Of a stretch of DNA of 64,000 nucleotides, positions 1 to 43,225 are shown piece by piece; the first letter of the stretch is position 1; every line of letters starts with the position of its first letter. The notes beneath the pieces were generated by a model. That model saw nothing but the letters and a program-made list of their open reading frames with translations, ran no database searches and was not told the origin of the DNA. The DNA comes from Escherichia phage vB_Eco_F27: the sequence record OP870146.1, one strand, 5' to 3'. A program made the translations under genes and the position numbers.

Positions 1-352
1 TGCCAATAAAACTACGAACAGAATCAGTAAATAAACGGAATCGAATATCATCGCTAGAATAACGAGAAAATTCTTTTTTAATGTTGCCAGCAGAAATTTT
101 AGCATAAGCTGAAGTATTAGAAAGAACAATAACTGTTCCACCATCATATAGCCAATTAACAGCAAAATTAGTTACTGCGGACGATTTACCTGATTGTCTG
201 CCGCCGTCTAAACGAAGTGTACAGTACTGCTTGAGTACGTCTTCAAATGGTGGGGCATAACCGTTCTTACAAATTTCTTCTACTCTAGCATCAGAATGGT
301 GTGTAAAAGCATTCATCAGGGATAGATAAGGTCCAGTTAAAAATGTTCTCAT
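1..352 (-). CDS. hypothetical protein with Walker A-like motif (GGRQSGKSS); 3' end runs off the window
   Basis: ATG at complement 350-352, frame open to position 1; translation begins MRTFLTGPYLSLMNAFTHHSDARVEEICKNGYAPPFEDVLKQYCTLRLDGGRQSGKSSAV; absent from ORF track because no stop lies inside the window. Confidence 0.4.
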   Translation of the reverse strand, partial: MRTFLTGPYLSLMNAFTHHSDARVEEICKNGYAPPFEDVLKQYCTLRLDGGRQSGKSSAVTNFAVNWLYDGGTVIVLSNTSAYAKISAGNIKKEFSRYSSDDIRFRLFTDSVRSFIG

Positions 353-462
353 TTAGTTTCTCTTTTAGGTTGGGCCATTCCGTGGCGCATGAATTGTCCA
401 TTTCTGTATTTACCCCTCCAAGTAATTATGAATATACTATCACAATTCTAGGAGATGTAAAC

Positions 463-861
463 TTATTTGTAGGTTTTCATCCAATTCTTGAACAAAGCCG
501 CGACGTCTTTCTCTTTAACGTTCAGTTTAATGTCCAACATTTTACCGCCCGCTGCTCTCGTTTGACGAATCTTAGCAGTACCGGTTTCACCATTCCACTC
601 AACATAATATTGCCCAGTGTTCATAGCGATACCGTTGCCAAAGTCTTCGTTATTAGAAGTAGTGAATGCCAACTTCATGGTCTTAGAGACACGGGCCGGC
701 ATGCCTGTCTGAAGGGCATTACGAACGCGAATAACCTGAGGAGTGGCCTGGGTCAGGTTCTCATTCAGTTCTTCGGTGAACTCTTCAGATTCAAACATCG
801 CCAAAAGTTCTTTAGATGCAGGAATTACATTCTCTGCGATAAATTCTTTATATGTTTTCAT
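463..861 (-). CDS. internal head protein-like (capsid-targeting-sequence N-terminus MKTYKEFIAE), 132 aa
   Basis: ORF track; ATG at 859-861 with AAGGAAAC SD; N-terminus matches the T4 IPIII capsid targeting sequence MKTYQEFIAE, which ends in an L/I-x-E prohead protease site. Confidence 0.5.
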   Translation of the reverse strand: MKTYKEFIAENVIPASKELLAMFESEEFTEELNENLTQATPQVIRVRNALQTGMPARVSKTMKLAFTTSNNEDFGNGIAMNTGQYYVEWNGETGTAKIRQTRAAGGKMLDIKLNVKEKDVAALFKNWMKTYK

Positions 862-925
862 TTTTTGTTTCCTTGTTTGTTTTGATAGAGTAATTATACC
901 ATATTAATACTTAAGCGTAAACCGT

Positions 926-1186
926 TTAAGCTTTACCGCCAGAAATAATTCCGAAGTTGTTAAAATCGTATCCAATATCGTCAACATCTACTTTAGGACT
1001 TACTACAACATAAGCAATTTCACTACGTTTTGCATAGGTGTTTATTTCTTTACCATCACCACCTAAGAAAGAATACCCATTACGTTTTAATGAGCCAAAG
1101 TCTTCCGCATCACCAATGAAAGCTTTAACTTTAAATTTAGGACCTTTGGCATCTGCTTCAACGATAAATTCTTGATACATTTTCAT
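926..1186 (-). CDS. internal head protein-like (N-terminus MKMYQEFIVE), 86 aa
   Basis: ORF track; ATG 1184-1186 with AAGGAAAA SD; CTS-like N-terminus. Confidence 0.5.
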   Translation of the reverse strand: MKMYQEFIVEADAKGPKFKVKAFIGDAEDFGSLKRNGYSFLGGDGKEINTYAKRSEIAYVVVSPKVDVDDIGYDFNNFGIISGGKA

Positions 1187-1192
1187 TTTTCC

Positions 1193-1390
1193 TTAGTAAA
1201 TTGATTTACCATAGTATTTGTACCAAGTCGGACGTTGAGCAATTTTTTCATCTAAGCGTGCTTGATTTATCGCAATGGACGCTTCGGACGGGTCATAATT
1301 TCCTCCAAGTAGTTGATGAATGTATAGTATCAAAACCCTTGGAGGAAGTAAACAACTATTTTTCTGAAGCGCCTGAAATATATTTTTCAA
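1193..1390 (-). pseudogene. denV: remnant of denV (endonuclease V, pyrimidine dimer glycosylase): C-terminal ~33 codons only
   Basis: Frame translates ...[33 protein letters not shown], matching the T4 DenV C-terminus ([34 protein letters not shown], from memory); no ATG in frame; stops at 1400-1405 upstream; N-terminal 100 codons absent. Confidence 0.5.
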
Positions 1391-1637
1391 GACGTTGTTT
1401 CATTAAAGAGCCGTTCTTAGCGATTTCTTCCGGTTTATCGCACATACGCAACAAGGCTTCGAGCTTAACGATATCGCTGGTACGTTCAAATTTGCGAGTA
1501 TCTATCTTACTAGCAAGTTCAGAAATACGTGCTAATAGACTTTCGGCTTCAACCAAAGCTGCACCTAGCTTAGTTGCAAATGTGTCAGTAGCTTCGTTAA
1601 GAATAGATTCTGATAAAAATTCACTATATGTTTTCAT
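1356..1637 (-). CDS. internal head protein-like (N-terminus [10 protein letters not shown]), 93 aa
   Basis: ORF track trimmed from TTG at 1652 to ATG at 1635-1637; CTS-like N-terminus; overlaps the denV remnant by 35 nt. Confidence 0.5.
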
Positions 1638-2122
1638 ATATACGCTTTCCAAGTTCCTGTTTTAAATGTTGAGATTACGCGTTTCGCGCGATTAGGTGTC
1701 TGACGATACCATTTAGATTGGGCTAGATTTACTGCCGCTTCGTCCCAACGTTTCTGTTGAAGCATACGAAGAGAATTAGTAAAACCGGCAACGCCTGCTA
1801 CGCCCATTTGGAAGACCATATTGACCAATGCACATCGACGAACAGCATCTAAAGAATCATATACCGGTTTAAGTTTAGCATTACCCAAGATTCCGCGAAC
1901 GGCTTTATCAACGTCTTCATTAAATAGCTTTTCAGCCTCATCAAGGGTAATTGTACCGTTGCATTTACGACCGATCATTCTGTCAAGTTCAGCTTTAGCT
2001 ACGGCTAAAGAAGGGTTCTTTGTTACTAAATGGCCTATGCCAATCGTCCAAAAGCCTTCAGTGTCTTTGTATAAAGTCAGTCTAAGACCTTCGTCATTAC
2101 GAAGCATTTCAAATATATTCAT
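1634..2122 (-). CDS. e: lysozyme (endolysin, T4 gene e homolog), 162 aa
   Basis: Translation [32 protein letters not shown]... is near-identical to T4 lysozyme over the full length; ATG 2120-2122 with GGGAGGTA SD. Confidence 0.93.
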
Positions 2123-12031: not shown

Positions 12032-12295
12032 TTATTTCAAATATATTGCGTATTTTTTATAGCCACCAGGCTCGTGTCGAAGACCTTTATCATTCGCAAA
12101 ACGTTGAATGTTATTGAACTGATTTTCATCAAGTTCGGATGTGTCAAATATGAAAAAGTTTCGTTTGTTGCCAAGCGTGATATGCGGAGTTAAGTCAATG
12201 TTATACAAATTAAGAATATCAGCAATAACCTGATTGACCGCTTTGTTAATTTTCACACCAGACGATTCTGAGATGAATTCGTTGAAAGTTTTCAT
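12032..12295 (-). CDS. internal head protein-like (N-terminus MKTFNEFISE), 87 aa
   Basis: ORF track trimmed to ATG 12293-12295; CTS-like N-terminus. Confidence 0.45.
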   Translation of the reverse strand: MKTFNEFISESSGVKINKAVNQVIADILNLYNIDLTPHITLGNKRNFFIFDTSELDENQFNNIQRFANDKGLRHEPGGYKKYAIYLK

Positions 12296-12327
12296 TTTAG
12301 GTTCCATTTGGTTGTTTTGATAGGACT

Positions 12328-12356
12328 ACTATAACATAATCCTATCGTGTTGTAAA
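12328..12356 (-). promoter_or_regulatory. early promoter (-35 TTTACA / -10 TATAGT)
   Basis: ATTTACAacacgataggattatgtTATAGT. Confidence 0.5.
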
Positions 12357-12668
12357 TTATTTTATGCCTTTAGAAGAAATGGTGTTTTGGCGTTTGGTCC
12401 CTGTTTGTGAAAAATCGTGGTTATCGATTTGGTCGACTCGCATAACACCAAATGCAGATTTAATTTTAGCCTTTGAACCTTTTTTGATACTAATTATCAT
12501 ATAAGTATCATTTTTCTTATATTCGAAATTTGTTACTTCAACGCCTTGATTAGAAATTGACTTAATAATAGCATTAGCGTATTCATCATCTAACGGACCG
12601 GTGGTGTTAATAATAAAATTTTTATCGGCTTTAGTAGCTTCAGCGATAAACTCTTGATAAGTTTTCAT
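12357..12668 (-). CDS. internal head protein (N-terminus MKTYQEFIAE, identical to the T4 capsid targeting sequence), in the ipI map position, 103 aa
   Basis: ORF track trimmed to ATG 12666-12668; adjacent to 57B as ipI is in T4. Confidence 0.6.
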   Translation of the reverse strand: MKTYQEFIAEATKADKNFIINTTGPLDDEYANAIIKSISNQGVEVTNFEYKKNDTYMIISIKKGSKAKIKSAFGVMRVDQIDNHDFSQTGTKRQNTISSKGIK

Positions 12669-41313: not shown

Positions 41314-41738
41314 TGTATCTTATCCCTGAATCTTATGAATTGGTACTCGAAAATGTCGAAGCACTTATTCCTGAAGCACAGGGCCGAATCGATGCATTGT
41401 CTTCTGCTCTCGATATTGACGATATAAATACTATTATCGAGAACATGCTTGAAACTGAAACGGATTTAGCTGTTGCAATGGCTTCCATTATTAATGAAGA
41501 ACAGTTAAATGAGTTTATCGTTAAACATGTTTCTTCTCGTGGTGAAGTCACCCGCACTAAAGACCGTAAAACTCGTGAACGTAACGCGTTCCAAACCACT
41601 GGTCTTTCTAAAGCAAAACGTAGACAAATCGCTCGTAAGGTCGTTAAAGCTAAAAAAGCTAACCCTTCAGGCCAAGTTAAAGGCTTGCGTAAGCGTAAAA
41701 AGGCTCTTAAACGTCGTAAAGCATTAGGATTAAGCTAA
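41313..41738 (+). CDS. 68: gp68 prohead core protein, 141 aa
   Basis: Position; basic C-terminus. Confidence 0.8.
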
Positions 41739-42379
41739 TGAATAAACCCGAGTTACTTATTGAAACTTGGGGTCAACCCGGTGAGATTATTGATGGCGTT
41801 CCAATGTTGGAATCTCATGATGGAAAAGATTCTGGCTTAAAACCAGGGCTTTATATAGAAGGTATTTTTCTTCAGGCAGAGGTTGTTAACCGAAATAAAC
41901 GTTTATATCCTAAACGCGTTTTGGAAAAAGCAGTAAGTGACTATATTAAAGAACAAGTCGCAACCAAACAAGCCCTTGGAGAATTAAACCATCCACCTCG
42001 TGCAAATGTTGACCCTATGCAAGCCGCTATCATTATTGAAGATATGTGGTGGAAAGGAAACGATGTATATGGACGTGCTAGAATTATTGAAGGCGACCAT
42101 GGTCCCGGTGATAAATTAGCTGCTAATATACGAGCTGGTTGGATTCCAGGTGTTTCCTCTCGTGGTCTTGGTTCTTTAACCGACACCAATAAAGGGTACC
42201 GTATCGTGAACGAAGGATTTAAATTAACCGTCGGCGTAGATGCCGTATGGGGACCTTCTGCTCCAGATGCTTGGGTTACTCCTAAACAAATATCAGAATC
42301 AGAAAATTCGGTGGAAATCACCAAAAACAGTGCTGACGAAGCATTTAAAGCTCTCGCAGAGAGTTTAAAAGCATTATAA
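41738..42379 (+). CDS. 21: gp21 prohead core protein and protease, 213 aa
   Basis: Length and order. Confidence 0.9.
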   Translation: MNKPELLIETWGQPGEIIDGVPMLESHDGKDSGLKPGLYIEGIFLQAEVVNRNKRLYPKRVLEKAVSDYIKEQVATKQALGELNHPPRANVDPMQAAIIIEDMWWKGNDVYGRARIIEGDHGPGDKLAANIRAGWIPGVSSRGLGSLTDTNKGYRIVNEGFKLTVGVDAVWGPSAPDAWVTPKQISESENSVEITKNSADEAFKALAESLKAL

Positions 42380-42412: not shown

Positions 42413-43225
42413 ATGATCAAAGAACAACTTTTGAAAGAAGCTCAGAATATCGAGACTTCAGTTGCTCTTAATAGTGTTTTCGAATCAGTAGAACTGTCTC
42501 CGGACGTTAAAGCTAATTTCAGCACTGTATTCGAAGCCACCGTTAAGCAGGAAGCAGTCAAACTGGCTGAATCTCATATCAAAGCCATCGCCGAAAAGGC
42601 CGAAGAAGAAGTTGAAAAGGCTAAAGAAGATGCTGAAGAGAAAGCTGATAAAAAATTGGCTGAACAAGCTTCTAAATTCCTAGACCATCTTGCAAAAGAA
42701 TGGCTCGCAGAAAACCAAATCGCAGTTGATAAAGGCATTAAAGCTGATTTGTTCGAATCCATGCTTGGTGGTCTGAAAGAACTGTTTGTTGAACATAACG
42801 TTGTTGTTCCAGAAGAATCTGTAGATGTTGTAGCAGAAATGGAAGAAGAGCTGGCCGAACATAAAGAAGAAACCGCTCGTTTGTTCGAAGAAGTTACCAA
42901 ACGTGATGCATATATCAATTACGTTCAGCGTGAAACCGCTATTAATGAAAGCGTAAAAGACCTGACTGAATCTCAGAAAGAAAAAGTTATTGGCCTGGTT
43001 GAAGGTATGGATTATTCTGACGCATTTGGTACTAAGTTAACTGCTATTGTAGAAATGGTTAAAGGTTCTACTAAAGAAGAAGCCGCTATTACCGAAAGTA
43101 TAAATACAGTTGACAATGACGCTGCCGGTCTTAATTTTGTTGCCGAAGCAGTTGACACTACCACAACTCAGGTAGAACAGAATTCTAATGTAAGTTTATA
43201 TGCGAAAGTCGCATCTCGTTTCTAA
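42413..43225 (+). CDS. 22: gp22 prohead core scaffold protein, 270 aa
   Basis: Acidic coiled-coil; length as T4 gp22. Confidence 0.9.
   Translation: MIKEQLLKEAQNIETSVALNSVFESVELSPDVKANFSTVFEATVKQEAVKLAESHIKAIAEKAEEEVEKAKEDAEEKADKKLAEQASKFLDHLAKEWLAENQIAVDKGIKADLFESMLGGLKELFVEHNVVVPEESVDVVAEMEEELAEHKEETARLFEEVTKRDAYINYVQRETAINESVKDLTESQKEKVIGLVEGMDYSDAFGTKLTAIVEMVKGSTKEEAAITESINTVDNDAAGLNFVAEAVDTTTTQVEQNSNVSLYAKVASRF

What the first reader, a model, noticed from the sequence alone, without database searches (positions are those of the whole stretch)
463..1637. Cluster of three internal-protein-like genes with capsid-targeting N-termini flanking a denV remnant
Three adjacent minus-strand genes (463-861, 926-1186, 1356-1637) start MKTYKEFIAE, MKMYQEFIVE and [10 protein letters not shown]. 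This is essentially the T4 IPIII capsid targeting sequence (MKTYQEFIAE), which ends in the L/I-x-E site cut by the gp21 prohead protease. Downstream of the shared leader the three proteins are unrelated. In T4 such proteins are packaged in the head and injected with the DNA (IPI* blocks the GmrSD restriction system). A shared targeting peptide on divergent cargo is the expected signature of a diversifying set of injected anti-defence effectors.
Basis: partly seen in the sequence, partly recalled or inferred. Interest (0 to 1): 0.8.

Follow-up and report, generated by a model that had tools for sequence, protein, structure and literature searches.

The report
T4-type injected internal protein genes

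Summary
Minus-strand ORFs 1637..1356 (93 aa), 1186..926 (86 aa) and 861..463 (132 aa) start [20 protein letters not shown] and MKTYKEFIAE. A 310-bp-deleted denV lies between the first two. The motif cannot be chance (5 in the window, 0 in 300 shuffles).

The window is an RB69-like Mosigvirus. The genes sit in the e–vs.8 interval, which holds ipIII and ipII in T4. The window also encodes the gp21 prohead protease and the gp22 scaffold.

The cargo parts are unrelated to each other and to T4 Ip1–3. Each belongs to a very narrow, phage-only family.

Two of the three genes are already annotated "internal head protein".

Refinements:
- Diversity arises by cassette swapping, with breakpoints at the end of the tag-coding 30 nt and at the stop codon/early promoter.
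- In the 93-aa family the conserved cleavage site is LNE15|A, not E10.
- A natural fusion of the 86-aa and 132-aa cargo types exists.

Packaging, cleavage and targets remain untested. Structure prediction failed.

The parts
1356..1637 (-). IP-A: 93-aa internal-protein gene ([10 protein letters not shown]...), same family as RB69ORF127c. Its start ATG overlaps the stop of e (ATGA). Probable propeptide cleavage at LNE15|A16.
   Evidence: phrog_3499 'internal head protein', 1.2e-46; identical sequence on 541 contigs; RefSeq name 'internal head protein'
1193..1296 (-). denV (endonuclease V) remnant: start codon plus the last 39 codons. A 310-bp internal deletion at about 1292/1291, between AATTATG[A/T]C microhomologies, shifts the frame.
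   Evidence: (phrog_1183, profile positions 100-138 of 139); the same junction occurs in other phages
926..1186 (-). IP-B: 86-aa internal-protein gene (MKMYQEFIVE...), same family as RB69ORF125c. A second in-frame ATG at codon 3 makes the start slightly ambiguous.
   Evidence: (phrog_2667 'internal head protein', 4e-21)
463..861 (-). IP-C: 132-aa tag-bearing gene (MKTYKEFIAE...). Annotated only as 'hypothetical' in public records. Has an acidic helical N-terminal part (residues 21-40, net charge -6), a predicted beta-meander and a C-terminal helix.
   Evidence: (phrog_15461, unknown function)
832..861 (-). 30 nt coding the capsid targeting sequence of IP-C. This is the 5' breakpoint of the cassette swap relative to Mosigvirus relatives. 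Paralogous copies lie at 1157-1186 and 1608-1637.
   Evidence: (D1)
893..921 (-). T4 early-type sigma-70 promoter (TTTACG-17-TATAAT with TG) in front of IP-C. Conserved upstream of whichever Ip cassette occupies this slot in relatives.
   Evidence: PeSL consensus TTTACW-N17-TAYWAT from PMC4122927
1300..1353 (-). Promoter-plus-stem-loop (PeSL-type) element after IP-A: GTTTAC, a perfect 10-nt inverted repeat (1338-1347 / 1300-1309) around a TACTAT -10, with the right arm holding the denV ribosome-binding site.
   Evidence: I16; T4 counterparts
415..461 (-). Early-type promoter (TTTACA-16-TAGTAT with TG) and PeSL-like sequence after the IP-C stop. This is the 3' breakpoint of cassette swaps; it drives vs.8, which starts near 349 and runs off the window.
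   Evidence: (D14)
1634..2122 (-). e lysozyme gene, the upstream border of the Ip locus
   Evidence: (Phage_lysozyme 8.2e-14)
41738..42379 (+). gp21 prohead core serine protease, the enzyme expected to remove the leader
   Evidence: Peptidase_S77, 2.9e-107
42413..43225 (+). gp22 scaffolding core protein, the core into which tagged proteins are expected to be incorporated
   Evidence: T4_CASP, 1.5e-89
12032..12668 (-). Second Ip cluster (IP-D 12357-12668, 103 aa; IP-E 12032-12295, 87 aa) next to 57B, at the position of T4 ipI

Best explanation
These are three internal-protein (Ip) genes of an RB69-like T4-type phage. Each protein carries the ~10-residue N-terminal capsid targeting sequence. During head assembly the tag directs the protein into the gp22-based scaffolding core. 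The gp21 prohead protease then cuts after an L/I-x-E motif: E10 in IP-B and IP-C, most likely E15 in IP-A. The mature proteins (about 78, 76 and 122 residues) stay in the head with the DNA and are injected with it. There they most probably act as first-response inhibitors of host nucleases that attack the phage's modified cytosine DNA, as T4 Ip1, Ip2 and Ip3 each do for a different GmrSD type IV restriction enzyme. The locus is modular: [early promoter / stem-loop]-[RBS]-[30-nt tag]-[cargo]-[stop]. Recombination between the repeated promoter and tag sequences swaps, adds or deletes cargo cassettes.

Shown here: the motif, the synteny, the presence of protease and scaffold, the unrelated cargo, and the cassette breakpoints.

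Inferred: packaging, cleavage and injection (about 0.85), and anti-restriction function (about 0.5).
For: - Leader motif present three times in tandem and five times in the window, with none expected by chance.
- Y/F4, F7, I/L8 and E10 are kept, the residues that matter in T4 IPIII (PMC9026906).
- The position between e and vs.8 is syntenic with T4 ipIII/ipII, with RB69-type and JS98-type loci, and with more than 30 other T4-like loci whose Ip content differs almost genome by genome.
- gp21 protease and gp22 scaffold are encoded in the window.
- IP-A and IP-B hit PHROG families named internal head protein.
- Cargo parts are unrelated.
- Homology to Mosigvirus relatives (97-98%) ends at window ~839/832, the end of the tag-coding part, and resumes at 468, the stop codon. 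Only the cargo-coding 831..469 is exchanged, and it is 88.6% identical to JS98 orf114.
- Early promoters of the T4 PeSL type follow each stop codon, as in T4.
- Published function of the class: PMC3012670, PMC12373910, Srikant et al..
Against: - No virion proteomics or N-terminal data were found for any of the three families.
- None is related to Ip1-3, so no target can be transferred.
- Seven further ip genes (ip4-10) tested by Silas et al. gave no reproducible GmrSD inhibition, so 'every Ip is a GmrSD inhibitor' is unproven.
- Mature IP-A and IP-B are near neutral (pI ~6.3-6.4), unlike the basic T4 IpII/IpIII.
- No perfect T4 late promoter (TATAAATA) lies in 1-2800, although T4 ipIII/ipII have the same early-promoter layout.
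- AlphaFold models were too poor to use (pLDDT 42.5 and 40.5).
Confidence: 0.7

Rival explanations
1. The proteins are packaged but serve the virion itself, in head assembly, core organisation or DNA charge neutralisation and packing, rather than counter-defence.
For: T4 IPIII mutants assemble heads more slowly and give a smaller burst, and the T4 IPs bind DNA at low salt (PMC9026906). IP-C is mildly basic (pI 8.9).
Against: - Mature IP-A and IP-B are near neutral.
- The genes are dispensable cassettes that differ between near-identical genomes, unlike assembly components.
- All three T4 Ips now have anti-restriction targets.
Confidence: 0.15
2. The shared N-terminus is only a by-product of a mobile expression module (promoter, ribosome-binding site and first codons) that recombination spreads between genes. 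The proteins act in the cytoplasm of the producing cell and are not packaged.
For: Cassette breakpoints coincide with the tag-coding DNA and the promoter. Each gene is preceded by an early-type promoter. IPIII without its tag still works when supplied in the host.
Against: - The 10-residue tag alone is sufficient to load foreign proteins into T4 heads (PMC3012670, PMC9026906).
- Substitutions among the five tags in the window fall mainly at positions 3, 5 and 9 (also Y/F at 4, I/L at 8), while F7 and E10 are kept.
- In RB69ORF127c, Y4 and F7 survive although the rest of the tag has drifted, and a downstream LNE|A site is invariant. That pattern points to selection on the peptide, not only on the DNA.
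Confidence: 0.08
3. One or more of the three ORFs is a decaying, non-functional cassette, like the neighbouring denV.
For: denV in the same array is inactivated. Truncated or internally deleted IP-B variants exist in databases.
Against: All three ORFs are intact. They are conserved at 77-99% amino-acid identity across many phages and have ribosome-binding sites and promoters.
Confidence: 0.04

Closest known systems
T4 IpIII and IpII (genes ipIII, ipII, between e and denV)
   Same: Same locus, same gene orientation, near-identical leader (MKTYQEFIAE) and the same early-promoter layout in front of each gene. Expected to follow the same route: scaffold core, gp21 cleavage, injection.
   Different: No detectable similarity in the mature parts. 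T4 IpII/IpIII are basic, whereas IP-A and IP-B are near neutral. T4 Ip2 and Ip3 have identified GmrSD targets; the window proteins have none.
T4 IPI / IPI* (GmrSD inhibitor, ipI next to 57B)
   Same: Small tag-bearing packaged protein. Its propeptide is longer (19 residues, cut at ITE|A; sequence), as proposed here for IP-A (LNE15|A16).
   Different: Different locus (in the window that locus holds IP-D and IP-E instead) and no sequence similarity.
RB69ORF127c and RB69ORF125c ('internal head protein' in RefSeq)
   Same: Direct family members of IP-A and IP-B, in the same positions flanking denV.
   Different: RB69 and most relatives have an intact denV. The RB69 IP-A homologue has a degenerate leader (MKTYMNFYQN). 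Neither protein has been characterised, as far as my searches show.
JS98 orf114 and homologues in Dhakavirus and Klebsiella, Erwinia and Serratia T4-like phages
   Same: Same family as IP-C (41-96% identity), always inside the e-denV-vs.8 array.
   Different: Annotated only as hypothetical. In those phages the gene lies before denV, in the window after it. Shorter forms lack the acidic N-terminal helices.
PeSL mobile regulatory cassettes of T4-type phages (Arbiol 2010, Comeau 2014)
   Same: Early promoter plus stem-loop motifs flank variable genes and mark indel and replacement breakpoints.
   Different: Here the 5' breakpoint lies inside the coding sequence, at the end of the tag, so the tag acts as a second portable homology.
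Phage P1 Dar proteins (DarA, DarB, Hdf)
   Same: Capsid-packaged, injected anti-restriction proteins (PMC12810830, listed).
   Different: Unrelated phage family, much larger proteins and a different loading hierarchy. This is an analogy only.

Membership tests
T4-type internal proteins (capsid-targeted, gp21-processed, injected) | N-terminal capsid targeting sequence resembling MKTYQEFIAE, with an aromatic residue at 4 and Phe at 7 | tested here: met
   [20 protein letters not shown] and MKTYKEFIAE at the ORF starts. T4 reference sequences. Residue roles from PMC9026906.
T4-type internal proteins (capsid-targeted, gp21-processed, injected) | gp21 cleavage motif L/I-x-E at the end of the propeptide | tested here: met
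   LSE10, IVE10 and IAE10 are present. In the IP-A family only LNE15|A16 is invariant.
T4-type internal proteins (capsid-targeted, gp21-processed, injected) | Gene located in one of the two Ip loci (e-vs.8 interval, or next to 57B) | tested here: met
   Order nudE-e-IP-A-denV remnant-IP-B-IP-C-vs.8. Syntenic loci in T4, RB69-type and JS98.
T4-type internal proteins (capsid-targeted, gp21-processed, injected) | Same genome encodes the prohead protease gp21 and the scaffold gp22 | tested here: met
   Peptidase_S77 at 2.9e-107 and T4_CASP at 1.5e-89.
T4-type internal proteins (capsid-targeted, gp21-processed, injected) | Protein physically present in the mature head with the propeptide removed | not testable with these tools
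   Needs virion mass spectrometry. No published proteome for these families was found.
T4-type internal proteins (capsid-targeted, gp21-processed, injected) | Ejected into the host with the DNA | not testable with these tools
   Experimental only.
Ip-type inhibitors of GmrSD type IV restriction enzymes (Ip1*, Ip2, Ip3) | Sequence or fold homology to Ip1, Ip2 or Ip3 | tested here: not met
   No BLASTP similarity after the leader and no PDB sequence relatives. Fold comparison was impossible because the models had pLDDT ~40. Ip1-3 are also unrelated to one another, so homology is not really defining for this group.
Ip-type inhibitors of GmrSD type IV restriction enzymes (Ip1*, Ip2, Ip3) | Specific inhibition of a modification-dependent nuclease | not testable with these tools
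   Experimental only. ip4-10 gave no reproducible hits in Silas et al..
PeSL-flanked mobile cassettes | Early promoter (TTTACW-N17-TAYWAT) with an associated stem-loop at the cassette borders, coinciding with indel breakpoints between close relatives | tested here: met
   Promoters at 921-893 and 461-434. GTTTAC plus a perfect 10-nt inverted repeat at 1353-1300. Breakpoints at 468 and 419/415. The promoter at 921-893 has no clear stem-loop.

The most novel reading that the evidence does not exclude
None of the three cargo proteins resembles Ip1-3, and the host phage belongs to the RB69 group, whose cytosines carry arabinose rather than glucose. They could therefore be three new inhibitor families aimed at defence nucleases (or other first-response systems) that recognise arabinosylated DNA. 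IP-B and IP-C might act together, as hinted by a natural single-chain IP-B::IP-C fusion in another T4-like phage (P0034). More broadly, the tag may be a general delivery address.
Probability: 0.3. Interest if true: 0.55.

Novelty: already known. Interest (0 to 1): 0.2.

Why it matters
The class matters because injected internal proteins are the phage's first line against restriction, and they set the host range of therapeutic T4-like phages. All three T4 Ips were recently shown to block different GmrSD enzymes. This window adds no new principle. It does supply three uncharacterised cargo families in an arabinosyl-cytosine phage, one of them never annotated as an Ip, and each is a concrete candidate for a new anti-defence protein. 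The precise cassette borders (tag end, stop codon/promoter) and the large number of cargo families seen in a quick scan suggest that a systematic catalogue of tag-bearing genes would be a cheap way to mine injected effectors.

Tried and rejected
- Pfam found nothing for the three proteins. PHROGs gave only family names.
- PDB sequence searches gave only noise, E > 0.1.
- AlphaFold2 on the shallow family alignments gave pLDDT 42.5 (IP-C) and 40.5 (IP-B), so no fold search was run; it would have been meaningless.
- Homologue searches returned very narrow families of 15, 12 and 5 clusters. A full HMMER scan with the IP-C profile added only 6 hits. Two of them are weak repeat-motif matches to large beta-propeller-like proteins, which I regard as similarity of a beta-hairpin motif, not homology.
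- I looked for a perfect T4 late promoter near the genes and found none in 1-2800.
- I considered that the C-terminal MKTYK of IP-C (DNA 460-480, 81% identical to the tag start, D2) is the scar of a downstream tag. The W-M-K-x-[YH]-K end is conserved across the family, so this stays undecided.
- I considered the IP-B::IP-C fusion as proof of joint function. However, B and C occur without each other in many genomes, so the fusion may simply be a tolerated deletion between adjacent cassettes.
- Literature searches for virion proteomics of Mosigvirus or JS98-type internal proteins found nothing usable. Repoila 1994 is not held in the library.

Full report

| Name | Coordinates | Length | N-terminus | Note |
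|---|---|---|---|---|
| IP-A | 1637..1356 | 93 aa | [10 protein letters not shown] | ATG overlaps the TGA of the e lysozyme gene |
| IP-B | 1186..926 | 86 aa | MKMYQEFIVE | |
| IP-C | 861..463 | 132 aa | MKTYKEFIAE | |

T4 ipII and ipIII, fetched for comparison, both begin MKTYQEFIAE. The pattern MK[TM][YF].EF[IL].E occurs five times in the six-frame translation of the window, each time at an ORF start. It did not occur in 300 shuffles, and about 9e-6 matches are expected. At DNA level the tag-coding stretch is a three-copy 29-nt direct repeat.

The two additional tag-bearing genes lie at 12357-12668 (103 aa, exact MKTYQEFIAE) and 12032-12295 (87 aa, MKTFNEFISE). They sit beside 57B, 57A and gene 1, the position of ipI in T4.

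**The denV remnant.** Alignment with three relatives that have an intact denV shows a clean 310-bp deletion between two imperfect copies of AATTATG[A/T]C. It leaves the start codon, a frameshifted 9-codon stub and the last 39 codons of endonuclease V. A single-piece megablast match across the junction shows the same deletion in at least nine deposited phages (vB_Eco-B1.1, G4498, BF15, JM17, FL18, G8, Shinka, Phaginator and others). It is therefore an inherited polymorphism, not an assembly artefact.

**What the window is.** The region is 97-98% identical to Mosigvirus (RB69-like) phages. The gene order is nudE, e, IP-A, denV remnant, IP-B, IP-C, vs.8.

- IP-A is the family of RB69ORF127c. The exact 93-aa sequence occurs on 541 contigs and is named 'internal head protein' in RefSeq and UniRef.
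- IP-B is the family of RB69ORF125c (phrog_2667 'internal head protein').
- IP-C is identical to a 'hypothetical protein' of Escherichia phage vB_Eco_F27 and belongs to phrog_15461, 'unknown function'. Its family is found in 49 phage records. Most are JS98-type Dhakavirus (orf114) and Klebsiella T4-likes, with 41-55% identical versions in Erwinia and Serratia phages. It always lies inside the e-denV-vs.8 array.

All three families are very narrow: 5, 12 and 15 clusters among 5.8 billion proteins. An exhaustive profile search for IP-C added only six sequences.

**Machinery.** The window also encodes the portal, gp67, gp68, the gp21 prohead protease (Peptidase_S77, 2.9e-107), the gp22 scaffold (T4_CASP, 1.5e-89), gp23 and gp24. 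Everything the T4 targeting and processing route needs is present.

According to the mutational work summarised in PMC9026906, residues 4 and 7 of the tag carry the targeting and residues 8 and 10 the processing. All three proteins keep Tyr4, Phe7, Ile/Leu8 and Glu10.

The IP-A family alignment adds a refinement. RB69ORF127c (MKTYMNFYQNLSLNE|ATDTF) and another member (MKTYNEFLTVTTLNE|ATDTF) have lost Glu10, yet keep Tyr4 and Phe7. Leu13-Asn14-Glu15-Ala16 is invariant. The conserved cleavage site of this family is therefore most likely after Glu15, giving a longer propeptide, as in T4 IPI (19 residues).

**Cargo.**
- After the leader the three proteins show no similarity to one another or to T4 Ip1-3 (BLASTP).
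- Profile-profile alignments of the families cover only the first 14-23 columns.
- Pfam and PDB sequence searches are empty.
- AlphaFold2 on the shallow alignments failed (pLDDT 42.5 and 40.5), so I ran no fold searches.
- Mature IP-A and IP-B are near neutral (pI about 6.3-6.4) and IP-C is mildly basic (8.9). IP-C has a strongly acidic stretch at residues 21-40 (net charge -6) ahead of a predicted four-stranded meander and a C-terminal helix.

**How the locus varies.** The e-vs.8 interval is a shuffled array of Ip cassettes with denV at varying positions, and almost every genome is different.

| Phage / locus | Order between e and vs.8 |
|---|---|
| T4 | Ip3, Ip2, denV |
| JS98 | Ip3, IP-C, denV, IP-D |
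| RB69-type | IP-A, denV, IP-B, Ip2 and/or Ip3 |
| HMD-9 | IP-A, denV, IP-B, IP-C, Ip3 |
| This window | IP-A, denV remnant, IP-B, IP-C |

The IP-D family sits in this array in JS98 but at the 57B locus in the window, so cassettes also move between the two loci.

The breakpoints are informative.
- Against the Mosigvirus relatives Shf125875 and mogra, 97-98% identity runs through IP-B and the intergenic promoter into the next gene, as far as window 839/832. That is the end of the 30-nt tag-coding part.
- Identity resumes at 468, just before the stop codon at 465-463.
- Only the cargo-coding segment 831..469 has been exchanged. That segment is 88.6% identical to JS98 orf114.
- Against HMD-9, the window lacks an Ip3 cassette, with the break at 419/415 inside the promoter/stem-loop sequence.

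Each stop codon is followed by a T4 early-type promoter. These are TTTACG-17-TATAAT with TG at 921-893, TTTACA-16-TAGTAT at 461-434, and GTTTAC with a perfect 10-nt inverted repeat at 1353-1300. T4 ipIII, ipII and denV have the same layout. It matches the PeSL elements described as mediators of modular shuffling (PMC4122927; PMC2839356).

So the diversity of this set is combinatorial. Conserved cassettes are swapped through the promoter and tag homologies. It is not fast sequence divergence within families.

**Comparison with what is known.**
[quoted passage not shown] 1994.
- Kuhn and Thomas (PMC9026906) review the tag.
- Srikant et al. showed that IPIII is needed on ECOR17 and works without its tag when supplied in the host.
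- Silas et al. 2025 (PMC12373910) showed that Ip1, Ip2 and Ip3 each inhibit a distinct GmrSD type IV restriction enzyme. They refer to 'the two Ip loci' as an anti-defence hotspot. They also tested ip4-10 without finding reproducible new targets.
- RB69-group DNA carries arabinosylated rather than glucosylated cytosines and is still attacked by GmrSD enzymes (PMC6024577; PMC13326640). A role of these cargo proteins against modification-dependent nucleases is therefore plausible, but it remains inference.

**Extras.**
- The IP-C profile search recovered P0034, a 194-aa protein from a T4-like metagenomic contig. It is encoded directly after e and before denV. It is a single-chain fusion of an IP-B-like half (32% identity, E = 8e-13) and an IP-C-like half (49% identity, E = 3e-30), with one degenerate tag. 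IP-B and IP-C are adjacent in the same order in the window and in HMD-9. This may hint at joint function. However, each also occurs alone in many genomes, so a tolerated deletion between neighbouring cassettes explains it equally well.
One is a cytidylyltransferase-like enzyme above Pfam's threshold. The repertoire is thus much larger than the 'at least 10' quoted in the literature.

**Verdict.** The modest new points are:
- IP-C as an unannotated member of the class;
- the exact cassette borders;
- the probable E15 cleavage site in IP-A;
- the B::C fusion.

Packaging, processing, injection and targets remain to be shown experimentally.

Noticed in passing
window 12032-12668 (-): A second pair of tag-bearing genes: 103 aa with exact MKTYQEFIAE, and 87 aa with MKTFNEFISE. 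They lie next to 57B/57A/gene 1, the ipI locus of T4. They replace the IPI homologue that RB69 is reported to have. The 103-aa family occupies the e-vs.8 array in JS98. The two cargo parts are weakly similar (31% over 42 aa).
   Followed up: partly
window 1193-1296 (-): denV is inactivated by a 310-bp deletion between 7-9-bp direct repeats (AATTATG[A/T]C). The identical junction occurs in at least nine deposited Mosigvirus genomes, so a sub-lineage has lost UV endonuclease V.
   Followed up: yes
L129 4001-4585 (+) (Logan SRR14654591 contig; protein P0034): A natural single-chain fusion of an IP-B-like and an IP-C-like cargo behind one degenerate tag (MKSFDQYIME), encoded directly after e. The linker contains an L-T-E|S motif that could be an internal gp21 site.
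   Followed up: partly
Several come from environmental contigs. This is far more than the roughly ten Ips cited in papers.
   Followed up: partly
L043 4706-5263 (-): A tag-bearing 185-aa protein with a cytidylyltransferase-like domain (PF01467, 26.1 bits against a cut-off of 21; motif GRMQPVHKAH). This is a possible packaged and injected nucleotidyltransferase. Two other cargo proteins looked ADP-ribosyltransferase-like by eye (L125 669-1079, L045 12651-13046) but gave no Pfam hit.
   Followed up: partly
window 460-480 (-) versus 841-861 (-): IP-C ends ...NWMKTYK*. Its last 21 nt are 81% identical to the start of the tag-coding sequence. The W-M-K-x-[YH]-K end is conserved in the family. It could be the scar of a former downstream tag, or chance.
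   Followed up: partly
window 1634-1637: The IP-A start codon overlaps the stop codon of the e lysozyme gene (ATGA), which suggests translational coupling. The fusion gene in L129 and the IP-C-like gene of Serratia phage 4S overlap e in the same way.
   Followed up: no
window 291-401 (-) and about 349 downwards: A 36-aa ORF overlaps the start of vs.8 in another frame. vs.8 here starts near 349 (MRTFLTG...), as in RB69-type phages, and runs off the window edge. T4 vs.8 is longer (219 aa).
   Followed up: no
P0036, P0038: The IP-C core (GNGIAMNTGQYYVEWNGETGTA) weakly matches repeated units of large beta-propeller-like bacterial proteins (E about 1e-5 to 1e-6, summed over repeats). This is probably similarity of a beta-hairpin motif rather than common descent.
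   Followed up: no
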